From Fibrobacteria bacterium (GTDB lineage Bacteria > Fibrobacterota > Chitinivibrionia > Chitinivibrionales > FEN-1185), in contig JBBIGR010000006.1 of the NCBI GenBank assembly GCA_037447435.1, positions 1 to 64,000 of the forward strand: a stretch of DNA of 64,000 nt. The letters run 5' to 3'. The notes beneath the pieces were generated by a model. That model worked only from the letters and a program-made list of their open reading frames with translations, had not been told where the DNA came from and did no database searches. The translations under genes and the position numbers were made by a program. This document shows, piece by piece, positions 1-16,436 of this stretch; position 1 is the first letter of the stretch, and each line of letters starts with the position of its first letter.

Positions 1-70
1 CACAATACACACAATTAAAAACAAAAAACTGTAAACATTTTTTAGGACTTGACCCATTAATGGGCGAAGT

Positions 71-102
71 GCCCTTGTGGTAAGAGGGGCCAGGGGTGAG
101 GG
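71..102. repeat. REP-like element (CCCT..AGGGGCCAGGGGTGAGG type)
   Basis: gcccttgtggtaagaggggccaggggtgaggg; its reverse complement (cctcacccctggcccctct) resembles the units at 16321-16436. Confidence 0.45.
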
Positions 103-296
103 AAATGAGAACATATAAAATATTATTCCGCAAATGCGCGGGATGTGATTACCGTCACATTTATGCTTTTCTATTTGGTTCTTATTAGCCCGTTTATCAT
201 ATTATCATTGCATCTCTTCACGGCTATGCCACTTATTCTTCACAGGCATATGCCTTTTTAACAAGCAGTCACAATAGTACTGAAAGGAGGCCACCC

Positions 297-1055
297 ATGG
301 CCGATCAACAGGATTTTGAGACGTTGTTATCCACCCTCAATGGAATTGACAGGAAGAGCATTAGAAAGCTCGACATGCCTGTCGACCAGGCGATCAAAGA
401 AGGCGAAGTAATGGCTGCGGCGGCAACGGAAGATTCCGTAAAGCTTGCCGCAGTGGGTTTTGATGTTGCAAGAATCAATGCACTCGGCGCCGCTGTGGGG
501 GCCTTGCGATTTGCGCAGGCGCAGTATACGTCTACGTTGGGCGAGCATAAGGAAGCGACGAGGCAATGGGCCGCAGAAGAACCTGCGGCAATAGAACTGC
601 GTGCCGAAATGCTTGCGGCAGAAGCCTTTGCATTGCGTAAAATTCCCGATGCGGTAAAGGCCCTCAAGCATATTCGTGAAGGCAGCGGCAATCCAGACAT
701 GATTCAGGACATCGCCGGATTGGCCCAAGTCGGGAAAAAGTATCCCGATAGTTTAAAGAGCATAAATTTCGATCTTTCTATTCTTGATACGGCGGCGGAA
801 AAGGCCGGGATTCTCAGTAAATTGTATGCAAAAGCATTTATCGAAAACTCGACGACACAGGCCAAAGACCTGCGTGACCGGGCATTTTCGTATATGCGGT
901 CCATTATGAGTGACGTGTTGGAGGTTGCCGAATATGTTTTCCGTAAAGACAAGGCTAGGCTCGGATTTTATCATAGCGAATACAGAGCCAGGCAAAAAAG
1001 CAGTACGATGGAAGCTATAGTGATTCCAGAAAAAGCTCCTGCTACCGCAAAATAA
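297..1055 (+). CDS. hypothetical alpha-helical protein (252 aa)
   Basis: Clean ORF with strong RBS aaaggagg just upstream; Ala/Glu/Lys-rich helical composition; no catalytic motif recognised. Confidence 0.85.
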   Translation: MADQQDFETLLSTLNGIDRKSIRKLDMPVDQAIKEGEVMAAAATEDSVKLAAVGFDVARINALGAAVGALRFAQAQYTSTLGEHKEATRQWAAEEPAAIELRAEMLAAEAFALRKIPDAVKALKHIREGSGNPDMIQDIAGLAQVGKKYPDSLKSINFDLSILDTAAEKAGILSKLYAKAFIENSTTQAKDLRDRAFSYMRSIMSDVLEVAEYVFRKDKARLGFYHSEYRARQKSSTMEAIVIPEKAPATAK

Positions 1056-1067
1056 TCGTCATAGTAT

Positions 1068-1096
1068 CTTGGTGAGGGTACTTTGCTCTCACCAAG
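1068..1096 (+). other. stem-loop between the hypothetical gene and the periodic array
   Basis: cttggtgag(1068-1076)...ctcaccaag(1088-1096) perfect 9-bp inverted repeat, extendable by G-U pairs; no U-tract. Confidence 0.7.
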
Positions 1097-1098
1097 TC

Positions 1099-1645
1099 CT
1101 TGTGGAATCCTCGAATGTATTCATGGAATCTTCGAAATTGCTTGTGGAATTCTCAAATTCGTTCATGGTCGTAATTTTTTCATTAGTGGAACCGATTTTT
1201 TCATTCACGGAAACTATAAATTGTGGTCATGGAAGACGACCATTAAATCATGGACGATATATAATTATACATTTGTAAACATATTTTTGTTTATGGATTG
1301 CTTTTTTTTGCTTATGGAACACGAATATTCGGTTATGGAAGCATTTTTTTATTTTTTTCCGGTCTCCATTCCCTATTTCCCGGTCTCCATGACCGGTTTT
1401 TCCATTTCCATAACTACTATTTAAGGTTTCCATAACCATTTTTATGCCTTCCATGCAGCATGTTAAAGCTTCCATGCAAGCTTTCGGGGTTTTCATGCAT
1501 TAATTATAATAAAGCAATATTTCTATTTCAGTTTACATTTAAGCATTCCGGGCTTCCATGACCAAATTTAAATCATCCACGATTAATTTTAAAACTTCCA
1601 CTCACCATTTTATCAGATTACACAAACATTTTAAACTTTCCATGT
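1099..1645. repeat. degenerate 21-bp-period array with two oppositely oriented arms
   Basis: TGG(AA) cores at 1103,1124,1145,1166,1187,1208,1230,1251,1294,1315,1336; TCCA-type cores at 1365,1386,1407,1429,1450,1471,1492,1534,1555,1576,1597,1639; spacing 21 (occasionally 22) or multiples. Confidence 0.85.
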
Positions 1646-1812
1646 CGATTTATAGGCATGTGGAACAATAATTTGACATTTAAGGCATTGGAATATGATA
1701 TTAAGAAAAAGAAGAAATCTTATTTTTATAGGCCCAAATCGAATTTGACATCATCAACTTCGACATCAAATACCCGGATAAGCAAGGAACTTTACGGGAG
1801 TATGGAAAAATA

Positions 1813-2292
1813 ATGTCTTCCGGCATTTACAATCAATACACCGGTTATCACAATCGCCAATCAATCCGATTGCCAGGATACGATTATTCGCGGCCAGGAT
1901 GTTATTTCGTAACGATATGCATTCACGACCGGAAACAAAATTTATTAGGGAAGATTATTGAAAATAAAATGATATTAAACGAATTCGGTTTTATCGTGAA
2001 GAATGAAATATTGAAAACGGCGCAAATGCGTCCAAATGTGAAAATCGACGAATATGTAATAATGCCCCATCATTGTCATATTATTTATCATTTGAATGGA
2101 CAACGTAGGGGCACGTTGCAACGTGCCCCTACGGGAATAACCGCACCAATGATCGCATTGCAATATGGCACGGACCCACAAACCGAAGAATTCGGTAAAC
2201 CAACGACGAATTCAATTCCAACCATTATGCGCCTGACAAAATCAACCGCCACAAAACAAATCATTTTTTTGCGCAATACCCCTGGTTACTAA
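1813..2292 (+). pseudogene. REP-associated tyrosine transposase (RAYT, IS200-like Y1), C-terminally truncated
   Basis: RQSIRLPGYDYSRPGCYFVTIC and VIMPHHCHII (HUH) motifs; ORF stops before the WQRxY/YI..N segment that carries the catalytic Tyr. Confidence 0.8.
2104..2133. repeat. REP-type perfect 30-bp palindrome inside the RAYT gene
   Basis: cgtaggggcacgttg|caacgtgcccctacg, with GTAG/CTAC ends. Confidence 0.85.
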
Positions 2293-2498: not shown

Positions 2499-3488
2499 TT
2501 ATTCGAAATTAATGTCTTTAGCCGAAAAATCGACCCAGAAGAAATACCTGCTCGACGGTATGTCTTGTAGGATTCTCTGCGCAATGGCGATTTGAGGTTT
2601 GGGCAGCTTTTTCCACCACTTTGCATCGCTGGGATAACCGTATTGATACCCGGTTACGCTGTTGCCGTAACTCGAGCCCCAGTATTTGAAATCATCCATG
2701 CAGGAATCCATGCTCGGGAAAATTTGACTATCGGTTAAGAACCATAAATTAGGATGACGGAATGTTTTGGGCATATGCTCGGGTTCCCAATGCTTTAAAA
2801 ACAAAGTCCATTTGGGATTATATTCGGTGATTTTTTTCATCCATTTTTCCGCATCACTATCCCGTATAGGTAAGCCCGTGCTGTCTTTTGATTGTTTCGT
2901 GAAATACCATTCGGCATCCACGCCAAAACCAATGATGCATTTATGGCTTCCGAATGCCATAAATGCCATATCGATGTTTGACAAAAGATCGGAACTGCCC
3001 GGCTCGAATTGGATGATCGCGGAAATTCCGGCCGAATCGTAAAGCAACAGGGCTTTTTCATGATTGATGCCATCGGTAGTATCAAAGGTCATTGCAGCGG
3101 TATTGCCTGCATAATTTTCCGGTTTTGTAAACCCTATAACGGATCCTCCGTTTTTTTCATTATACCCGGAAACGATTTCTATGATTGCCGGTTCGAAACG
3201 GATCGATTTGTTCGTCTCTTTGGATAAACTTGCAGCGAATTGTTTTGCCCTGTTTATCCACCAAATATGGTCGTTGTTTTTTTCATCGTAACCGTAGGTG
3301 CTGCGCCGAAGTCCGGCAAAATACCGTTGCGTATCGGCATAATTGGCCTGTGCTTTGGAATTGGACAAAATTGCAGCTATTGAATTTTTCTTAGGAGATA
3401 CGGCAGAGTAAACCATGAGGCCGTTGATCGCAATGATTACCGATATCACCCAAACGGCACGTTTCGTATTTTCTTTTTTCGATATCAT
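2499..3488 (-). CDS. exported hypothetical protein, possible TIM-barrel glycoside hydrolase
   Basis: Probable start MISKKENTKR followed by a hydrophobic segment; motif IIGFGVDAEWY; Trp-rich. Confidence 0.7.
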   Translation of the reverse strand: MISKKENTKRAVWVISVIIAINGLMVYSAVSPKKNSIAAILSNSKAQANYADTQRYFAGLRRSTYGYDEKNNDHIWWINRAKQFAASLSKETNKSIRFEPAIIEIVSGYNEKNGGSVIGFTKPENYAGNTAAMTFDTTDGINHEKALLLYDSAGISAIIQFEPGSSDLLSNIDMAFMAFGSHKCIIGFGVDAEWYFTKQSKDSTGLPIRDSDAEKWMKKITEYNPKWTLFLKHWEPEHMPKTFRHPNLWFLTDSQIFPSMDSCMDDFKYWGSSYGNSVTGYQYGYPSDAKWWKKLPKPQIAIAQRILQDIPSSRYFFWVDFSAKDINFE

Positions 3489-3850
3489 TTTTGCTCGTTT
3501 CCAAATTTTTATCCATGAGATTTTCTCATGAATAAAACAGACTTTGGCGAAGTTGGATATTAGAAATATACAGAAATGAAATAAAGCAAACTTTGCAAAA
3601 AGCACCGGTTTCATTTGCAGAACTAAGAAAACATTTTTCTTAAGAATTACAGGGGAAAAACGAATAAAAGAAATTTAGCATCAGATACCGGCAATGTTTA
3701 AATTATATTGAGATGTCTATACAGCTTAGTACTTGAAACATATAGACCATGGTGCCGAGTTTTACCGAGCGTATTAATTCTCAACTGCAACTGCCCGGTT
3801 GCGGCAAGTCCTCCGAAACAATAGGAGGAATCAACGGATTAGGCAATACT

Positions 3851-16320: not shown

Positions 16321-16436
16321 GGTTTACTACCCCATCCTCGGTCCTTCCCATTAACCAAGGGGAAGAATGACAAGGAAGGTTTACTACCTCATCCTCGGTC
16401 CTTCCCCTTAACCAAGGGGAAGGATGACAAGGAAGG
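16321..16436. repeat. 57-bp tandem duplication of a REP-like hairpin unit
   Basis: Near-identical copies start at 16321 and 16378, each with tccttcccc..ggggaagga dyad symmetry. Confidence 0.85.

What the first reader, a model, noticed from the sequence alone, without database searches (positions are those of the whole stretch)
297..1645. Candidate undescribed two-part system: helical protein gene + hairpin + phased array
Seen: a 252-aa helical ORF with a strong RBS is followed 12 bp after its stop by a 9-bp hairpin without a U-tract, and then directly by the phased array. The cassette sits between a REP-like element and a RAYT remnant and is unrelated to the neighbouring metabolic genes. Inference: protein and array form one unit, for example a DNA- or RNA-binding protein that polymerises on its own array, a protein/ncRNA pair, or a mobile or defence module. 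The hairpin could be a processing site or attenuator that releases an array RNA. I recognise no characterised family for the protein.
Basis: inference. Interest (0 to 1): 0.82.

Follow-up and report, generated by a model that had tools for sequence, protein, structure and literature searches.

The report
Helical protein with two-turn DNA array
An uncharacterised bacterial gene sits beside a non-coding array of repeats spaced two DNA turns (21 bases) apart, a pairing that recurs at about half of its relatives while the repeat letters change, so its predicted rod-shaped protein likely coats its own array and may be a partner sought for fixed-length bacterial satellites.

Summary
Observation confirmed; the gene-plus-array unit is real.
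- The 252-aa ORF (297-1055) is followed by a hairpin and a 21-nt-phased array of two inverted arms (26 units; lag-21 identity 0.485 vs 0.284±0.019 in shuffles).
- The protein is an all-helical two-repeat rod (pLDDT 87), a distant sister of NCBIfam PQLLE, with no structural match.
- It occurs in 39 of 296 Fibrobacterota genomes. 42 of 81 loci carry a 20-22-nt array (29 downstream, 13 upstream, never both), against 1 of 239 control genes.
- The period is kept (21.07±0.46); the motif is not.
- The array-RNA idea is weak: the hairpin is family-wide an ordinary 3' end, most arrays are single-armed, and the two arms show no pairing register.
- Best reading (about 0.5): the protein binds its own double-stranded array, one rod per two helical turns. 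Binding is untested.
- The array class is in print (Subirana and Messeguer, PMC8161180) with the protein only hypothesised; seven literature searches found no gene-array pairing.
- This scan has noted the pairing before, in this genome (e1-9002601) and for DUF6261 genes elsewhere.

The parts
1..54 (.). End of a multicopy element at the contig break, read as an IS end; not part of the cassette
   Evidence: 12 copies at 98-100% identity, mostly at contig ends; IS reading is inference
53..115 (.). Short dispersed REP-like repeat; flank
   Evidence: Copies on C58, C26, C8 and others
110..296 (+). Leader shared with paralogous cassettes; contains a conserved block at 176-261 (putative promoter region) and the RBS at 285-290
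   Evidence: 84% identical to the C26 leader; block found 6 times in the genome, 4 before family genes
297..1055 (+). 252-aa all-helical protein made of two internal repeats; distant sister of PQLLE family
   Evidence: halves align at 95% probability, E 3.8e-8; vs PQLLE 94.8%, E 4.9e-8; dN/dS 0.16 against the C26 paralog, dS saturated
1068..1096 (+). 3' hairpin of the gene, 13 bp with G-U pairs, no U run here
   Evidence: family counts
1093..1346 (+). Array arm 1: 12 units, period about 21.2, core (T/A)TGGA on the top strand
1358..1652 (-). Array arm 2: 14 units, period 21.1, same core on the bottom strand (inverted arm)
1662..1721 (+). End block with an outward sigma-70-like promoter match (-35 at 1673); shared by all six paralogous loci of this genome and five other sites
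   Evidence: 11 hits at E<=1.2e-9; scan; not found in loci of other genomes
1813..2292 (+). RAYT-like transposase remnant with an internal palindrome at 2104-2133; flank
   Evidence: NF047646 30 bits vs cut-off 80; palindrome I4

Best explanation
This is a stand-alone two-part cassette, a gene for a two-repeat helical protein plus a non-coding array with a period of two DNA turns, in which the protein likely binds and coats its own double-stranded array, about one predicted 8-nm rod per 21 bp. Shown: the pairing, the fixed period, the fast motif turnover, dispersal of the whole unit within genomes, and purifying selection on the gene. Inferred: DNA binding; that the rod length sets the period (the two long helices have 54-55 residues, about 8 nm at 1.5 A per residue, against 7.1 nm for 21 bp); and that recognition rests on spacing and DNA shape plus a short 4-7-base core, so the array sequence drifts by tandem duplication while its length is held. 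The likely outcome is a local nucleoprotein track that acts in cis as a sink for the protein and as a roadblock or insulator next to the gene or to the promoter at the array's end. The inverted second arm of the window is a local variant, not the family rule.
For: Array within 900 nt of the gene at 42 of 81 loci with full flanks vs 1 of 239 random genes of this genome. The unfiltered lag spectrum of all 95 downstream regions peaks only at 20-22, 42-43, 63-64 and 84-85, with nothing at 10-11. Period 20.0-22.0, mean 21.07, sd 0.46 in 35 arrays, i.e. 10-11 bp per turn and often not a multiple of 3. The array lies 3' (29) or 5' (13) of the gene, never both (Fisher p 0.003, kin not independent), so co-transcription is not required. 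Window arms share one core in inverted orientation while the T-tracts stay on the top strand in both arms, and the real order of units folds no better than permuted orders (-120.0 vs -121.4±5.6 kcal/mol; 35 of 60 permutations as good). Five cassettes of genome G016 are 87-95% identical from about -200 (one from -100) to stop+558 in unrelated contexts. dN/dS 0.05-0.21 in 7 pairs. Conserved basic residues R102/R114 and R193/R195/R201/R221, and a basic stretch after Y225. PQLLE genes over the cut-off have an upstream array at 5 of 7 loci with flank.
Against: No binding was measured or modelled. The proteins are net acidic (median -5.5) and match no DNA-binding fold. Motif and protein sequence barely covary: Mantel rho 0.09, 84 of 2000 permutations; rho -0.01 for cores, although 14 disjoint close pairs are somewhat more alike than background (0.62 vs 0.54, p 0.007). 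Proteins 82% identical can have unrelated motifs, and no hypervariable specificity segment was found. 39 of 81 loci have no array at z>=10; 16 of these lie in head-to-head gene pairs, only 4 with a clear array behind the partner. Gene-less copies of the window's array exist. Cores are not more palindromic than shuffles (13 of 35 above null). Arrays were tested only in Fibrobacterota and a few metagenome contigs.
Confidence: 0.5

Rival explanations
1. Protein/ncRNA pair: the array is transcribed and the protein polymerises on the RNA (in the window as a beads-on-a-string duplex of 7-bp stems and U-rich loops), in the manner of VIPR or TIGR arrays.
For: The window hairpin has no U run, so read-through is plausible. 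The bipartite layout resembles clusters #8,581 and #156,623 of Sun et al. 2026 (section 2.3 read). Downstream arrays lean G-rich on the sense strand (24 positive, 8 negative) and upstream arrays C-rich (9 of 12), p 0.0014, a polarity that an RNA could explain. 52-nt Bacillus satellites are reported as transcribed (PMC8161180 discussion).
Against: Only 3 of 37 arrays pass a strict two-arm test (four more paralogs of this genome look two-armed by eye). No preferred pairing register and no G-U bias on the top strand. 15 of 44 downstream arrays lie behind a hairpin with a U run and 13 arrays lie upstream. Units are copies of their neighbours (adjacent identity 0.35-0.93), not unique guides; the array has no phage match and no Rfam family above threshold.
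Confidence: 0.17
2. The protein makes or spreads the array rather than merely coating it: it acts on DNA in 21-bp steps (slippage or recombination aid), so the cassette is a selfish element and the array is its footprint or its end structure.
For: Up to nine or more paralogs per genome with patchy distribution. Whole-unit duplication with a ~40-bp direct repeat at both ends in three G016 copies. Gene-less array copies. Mirror GC polarity of upstream and downstream arrays. Some arrays are near-perfect recent expansions.
Against: No catalytic fold or invariant catalytic set (no invariant column in 150 sequences). No target duplication or empty site could be shown. A gene is never flanked by arrays on both sides (0 of 81). 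No match in phage, plasmid or viral collections.
Confidence: 0.18
3. The array is bound by a host factor (nucleoid protein or similar) or is a neutral satellite that collects in loosely constrained, AT-rich accessory regions; the helical gene only travels with it.
For: About 30 periodic regions in this genome, many without a family gene. Two other helical families with no detectable homology also have such arrays: DUF6261 at 13 of 30 loci and a 163-aa family at 12 of 13 (hhalign <=5%). Weak motif-protein covariation.
Against: Random genes have the array at 1 of 239, and mostly non-coding 3' regions at 17 of 440, six of which are this family's own loci. The motif is replaced at almost every locus while adjacency to the gene is kept, which passive hitch-hiking would not maintain.
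Confidence: 0.12
4. Anti-phage defence module or toxin-antitoxin pair.
For: In this genome the end block precedes Cas3 and an NsnA/PD-T4-2-like ATPase; a few relatives lie near HipA, TIR, DpnII-type or Schlafen genes.
Against: No PADLOC match for 6 family proteins; most neighbours are metabolic, transport or unknown genes.
Confidence: 0.05

Closest known systems
Constant-length, variable-sequence bacterial satellites, 20-21-nt class (Subirana and Messeguer 2021, PMC8161180; abstract, section 3.3 and discussion read)
   Same: Non-coding tandem repeats of 20-21 nt, no sequence conservation between families, a short conserved core per unit; the authors note two helical turns and hypothesise a protein that needs a constant repeat size to polymerise on DNA.
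   Different: The sections read name no such protein and no adjacent gene; their data are Bacillus. Here the array is tied to one gene family, is more degenerate and can be two-armed. Whether Bacillus satellites have such genes was not tested.
NCBIfam NF052641 PQLLE family protein (function unknown)
   Same: Profile alignment over 176 columns, 94.8%, E 4.9e-8; both have an internal two-fold repeat; PQLLE genes carry 21-nt arrays too.
   Different: The window protein scores 29.6 bits against a cut-off of 80, has an extra N-terminal segment, and its array is mostly downstream, whereas PQLLE arrays were upstream.
Centromere/operator arrays bound by the adjacent gene's product: ParR-parC, TubR-tubC, omega-parS, SopB-sopC (own knowledge, recalled)
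   Same: A phased array next to a gene whose product would coat it cooperatively.
   Different: No NTPase partner, no ribbon-helix-helix or helix-turn-helix match, no plasmid hit, many chromosomal copies, and a motif that is not conserved.
VIPR and TIGR-Tas arrays, and the inverted period-7/8 clusters #8,581 and #156,623 (Sun et al., bioRxiv 10.64898/2026.10.21.760802; abstract, passages and section 2.3 read)
   Same: Fixed short motif alternating with variable bases; the two clusters have an array followed by its reverse-complemented copy, like the window.
   Different: Periods are 5, 18, 7 and 8 nt, not 21; the two inverted clusters have no co-localised protein; units here are tandem duplicates, not guides.
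Pfam DUF6261 (PF19775)
   Same: Similar size, unknown function, multi-copy, and next to 20.5-21-nt arrays (13 of 30 loci); nearest named cluster by language-model features (0.83).
   Different: No Pfam hit for any of 150 family members and hhalign <=5%: homology not shown.
BrickBuilt MITE/minisatellite of Porphyromonas gingivalis (Klein et al. 2015, PMC4596501; abstract and 'Genome locations' read)
   Same: Intergenic tandem array (23 nt) with promoter elements, dispersed in a genome.
   Different: One sequence family with terminal inverted repeats and target duplications and no dedicated gene; here each locus has its own motif and a partner gene.

Membership tests
20-21-nt constant-length satellites | Tandem units of 20-21 nt | tested here: met
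   Window 21.1-21.2; family 20.0-22.0, mean 21.07
20-21-nt constant-length satellites | Sequence varies between families, short core conserved within | tested here: met
20-21-nt constant-length satellites | Non-coding | tested here: met
   6-18 stops in each of six frames; 22-nt steps inside the window array and periods of 20 and 22 in relatives
20-21-nt constant-length satellites | Detected under the authors' own repeat-calling thresholds | not tested
   Their program was not run; TRF finds only 2-3-unit fragments of the window array
PQLLE family (NF052641) | Score above the curated cut-off of 80 bits | tested here: not met
   29.6 bits
PQLLE family (NF052641) | Homology over most of the model | tested here: met
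   Model 27-203 of 211; hhalign 94.8% over 176 columns: sister family, not member
DUF6261 (PF19775) | Pfam match above 27 bits | tested here: not met
   0 of 150 members match at E<=0.01
Plasmid partition centromere systems | Linked NTPase (ParA, ParM or TubZ) | tested here: not met
   No conserved neighbour among 220 flanking and partner queries
Plasmid partition centromere systems | RHH or HTH centromere-binding fold | tested here: inconclusive
   No such match; best VIA Z 8.6 to generic helical bundles
Plasmid partition centromere systems | Protein binds the array | not testable with these tools
   Needs EMSA or ChIP
RNA-guided arrays (CRISPR, TIGR, VIPR) | Known period (60-79, 18 or 5 nt) | tested here: not met
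   Period 21; known periods from section 2.3
RNA-guided arrays (CRISPR, TIGR, VIPR) | Unique spacers matching foreign DNA | tested here: inconclusive
   Units resemble neighbours; no phage match of the array, but 15-nt spacers are too short for that search
RNA-guided arrays (CRISPR, TIGR, VIPR) | Array is transcribed and processed | not testable with these tools
   No RNA holder listed
MITE / transposon ends | Terminal inverted repeats and target-site duplication | tested here: inconclusive
   None seen at G016 boundaries; no empty site available

The most novel reading that the evidence does not exclude
A widespread class of rod-shaped helical 'ruler' proteins (this family, PQLLE and perhaps DUF6261 and the 163-aa family) each coats a private DNA satellite, one protein per two helical turns, reading spacing more than sequence. 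They would be the missing partner that fixes the length of 20-21-nt bacterial satellites, and a new kind of self-encoded bacterial chromatin module that spreads as a cassette and gates promoters of captured genes.
Probability: 0.35. Interest if true: 0.88.

Novelty: categorically new. Interest (0 to 1): 0.74.

Why it matters
Fixed-length, variable-sequence satellites are a published puzzle whose proposed binding protein has not been named in the papers read. This cassette supplies a concrete protein-DNA pair that can be tested with one gene and 550 bp of DNA. The family is large (2,083 clusters at 50% identity) and has no structural match, so a positive result would add a new DNA-binding fold and a mode of recognition by spacing, with possible use as programmable DNA scaffolds.

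Tried and rejected
Homodimer prediction: no verdict (score 0.00), not used either way. Sequencing runs: no RNA holder listed, not used either way. Fold searches of the 252-aa model (PDB, wide PDB, viral) and of the 163-aa model gave only generic helical bundles; a missing match does not show that the fold is new. Sequence search of solved structures: two hits at E 0.12. Rfam: two hits far below gathering score. Long RNA hairpin of the two arms: rejected by unit permutation. Palindromic cores as a rule: rejected. Hypervariable specificity residues: none found. 'Array always ends at an outward promoter': weak, 8 of 33 outward vs 1 inward, 3.8 expected by shuffling; 2 of 13 for upstream arrays. 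Heptad-coding array: rejected. Homology to DUF6261 or the 163-aa family: not detected, though helix lengths of the 163-aa model resemble one repeat. Empty insertion site in the genus: flank DNA not found in 5 relatives. Phage, plasmid and IMG/VR searches: no match. Literature searches that found no description of the pairing: DUF6261; PQLLE. Subirana and Messeguer 2020 (J Bacteriol) was not available, and bioRxiv supplements and the COMPASS database were not seen; either could list 21-nt clusters with neighbours.

Full report
Observation. The ORF 297-1055 (252 aa) has a clear RBS. A hairpin begins 12 nt after the stop (1068-1096, -23.2 kcal/mol, z -5.2, no U run). The array runs from about 1093 to 1652. 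Lag-21 identity is 0.485 against 0.284±0.019 in 1000 shuffles, and each half is significant alone. It has two inverted arms: 12 units with (T/A)TGGA on the top strand and 14 with the same core on the bottom strand. All six frames contain stops. Base 1-54 recurs at many contig ends (read as an IS end, inference), 53-115 is a dispersed repeat, and 1813-2292 is a RAYT-like remnant.

The protein. Pfam finds nothing for it or for 150 relatives, nor does PADLOC. NCBIfam PQLLE matches below cut-off, and a profile comparison confirms a sister relationship (94.8%, 176 columns). The two halves are repeats of each other (95%, E 3.8e-8). AlphaFold2 gives an all-helical model, pLDDT 86.7, with long helices at 58-112 and, broken once, 161-214. 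Fold searches gave no significant match. An HMM search finds 2,083 clusters at E<=0.001. Named members include Chitinispirillaceae and Galbibacter mesophilus. The family is in 39 of 296 genomes of the phylum, often as many paralogs, and six times in this genome. dN/dS is 0.05-0.21 in 7 pairs by a simple count. Phage, plasmid and IMG/VR searches were blank.

The pairing. I took 113 distinct family hits from the best-ranked loci; they were chosen by E-value, not at random. Of 95 with enough downstream DNA, 44 have a 20-22-nt periodicity score >=6, against 17 of 440 mostly non-coding 3' regions of this genome, six of which are the family's own loci. With both flanks scanned at a stricter score of 10, after dropping 3 partial hits and 29 loci with short flanks, 29 of 81 have the array downstream, 13 upstream, none on both sides and 39 neither. 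The control was 1 of 239 random genes; 11 of 250 were dropped for short flanks, and controls were scanned at a coarser step of 100 instead of 50. Sixteen of the 39 lie in head-to-head pairs of two family genes, four with a clear array behind the partner; several others score 5-10. The detector looked only at periods 19.5-22.75, but the unfiltered lag spectrum from 8 to 94 peaks only at multiples of about 21. Mean period is 21.07, sd 0.46, in 35 arrays. No neighbour recurs among 220 queries (most of the 240 flanking ORFs listed, plus partner genes).

What is kept and what is not. Motifs differ between close homologs. Whole-profile similarity tracks protein identity weakly (Mantel rho 0.09, 84 of 2000). 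Core similarity does not track it overall (rho -0.01), though 14 disjoint close pairs are somewhat more alike than background (0.62 vs 0.54, p 0.007); that shows co-inheritance at most. No specificity segment stands out. Most arrays are single-armed: 3 of 37 pass a strict two-arm test. Downstream arrays lean G-rich on the sense strand and upstream ones C-rich (p 0.0014, kin not independent); the window's second arm is C-rich like an upstream array. This polarity is unexplained.

RNA or DNA. The real array folds at -120.0 kcal/mol; permuting units within arms gives -121.4±5.6, 35 of 60 as good. No register has more spacer pairing, G-U pairs do not favour the top strand, and T-tracts face T-tracts. 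A strong hairpin follows the gene equally often with an array (22 of 44) and without (22 of 51), and two thirds have a U run. With upstream arrays in 13 loci, a DNA-level role fits best. A beads-on-a-string RNA is not excluded for the window itself.

Spread. Five G016 cassettes are 87-95% identical from the leader to stop+558 in unrelated contexts; three have a ~40-bp direct repeat at both ends. In this genome a promoter-like end block occurs 11 times, behind all six paralogs, before Cas3, an NsnA/PD-T4-2-like ATPase and ORFs I recall as restriction-modification-, TcmP- and KilA-N-like (labels from memory, no call). Gene-less copies of the window's array lie on C9, C2 and C42. The end block is not found in other genomes, and a promoter after the array is not a family rule. 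No mobilising enzyme was identified.

A wider pattern. DUF6261 genes have such arrays at 13 of 30 loci, a 163-aa helical family at 12 of 13, and PQLLE genes over cut-off at 5 of 7 with flank, against 0 of 7 below cut-off. Homology to DUF6261 and the 163-aa family was not detected. This either points to an old superfamily or to convergence, and it also leaves room for a shared host factor.

Literature. Subirana and Messeguer 2021 (PMC8161180; abstract, section 3.3, discussion) describe 20-21-nt satellites of fixed length and free sequence and hypothesise a polymerising protein without naming one; I took this lead from earlier scan notes and read it myself. PMC6749651 and PMC8625621 were seen as passages only. 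Sun et al. 2026 (abstract, passages, section 2.3) report inverted arrays of period 7 and 8 with no protein. BrickBuilt (PMC4596501; abstract and one section) is a single-sequence MITE. Searches found no account of the gene-array pairing; subscription papers and supplements were not seen.

Verdict. The feature is real and is a recurring gene-plus-satellite cassette. The most likely mechanism is cooperative coating of the double-stranded array by the encoded rod, one per two turns (0.5); array RNA 0.17, array-generating selfish element 0.18, host-bound or neutral satellite 0.12, defence 0.05. It fails membership of PQLLE, DUF6261, partition systems and RNA-guided arrays, while its array meets the description of the 20-21-nt satellite class. 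Interest 0.74.

Noticed in passing
G000 C9:109986-110406 (-), C2:226081-226460 (+), C42:17538-17615: Gene-less copies of the window's array; the C9 copy keeps both arms and the junction, the C2 copy keeps arm 2 and the end block.
   Followed up: partly
window 1662-1721 and 10 other sites in G000: Promoter-like end block dispersed in this genome only, often before defence-type or mobile genes.
   Followed up: partly
L105:1307-1795 (G000 C45) and L117-L129: A widespread 163-aa all-helical family without Pfam match has a 21-nt array at 12 of 13 loci; its helix lengths resemble one repeat of the 252-aa protein.
   Followed up: partly
L102-L104, L130-L159; gene-less L109, L110: DUF6261 genes with 20.5-21-nt (41-42) arrays, mostly upstream, and look-alike arrays without the gene on C20 and C65.
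   Followed up: partly
L036, L038, L052, L055, L061, L065, L069, L070, L073, L075, L079, L080, L083, L087, L092: Head-to-head pairs of two divergent family genes, usually a long and a shorter one, with the array mostly behind the weaker-scoring partner; three lie next to a beta-CASP nuclease gene.
   Followed up: partly
L044, L046, L047 (G016), about -200 and stop+574: A ~40-bp direct repeat, part of a REP-like palindrome, at both ends of duplicated cassettes.
   Followed up: partly
G000 C6:70441-70516 and C4:113100-113900: The cassette's leader block precedes a RAYT-like ORF instead of a family gene, and another 21-nt array precedes a RAYT-like ORF (label from likeness to the window's remnant).
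   Followed up: no
family-wide: Mirror GC skew: downstream arrays G-rich, upstream arrays and second arms C-rich on the gene's sense strand.
   Followed up: partly
L006, about 560-770 nt after the stop: CRISPR-like repeats follow the 22-nt array directly.
   Followed up: no
window 2499-3614 (-) and 16321-16436: A 371-aa ORF with no Pfam match, and a 57-bp tandem duplicate of a REP-like unit.
   Followed up: no
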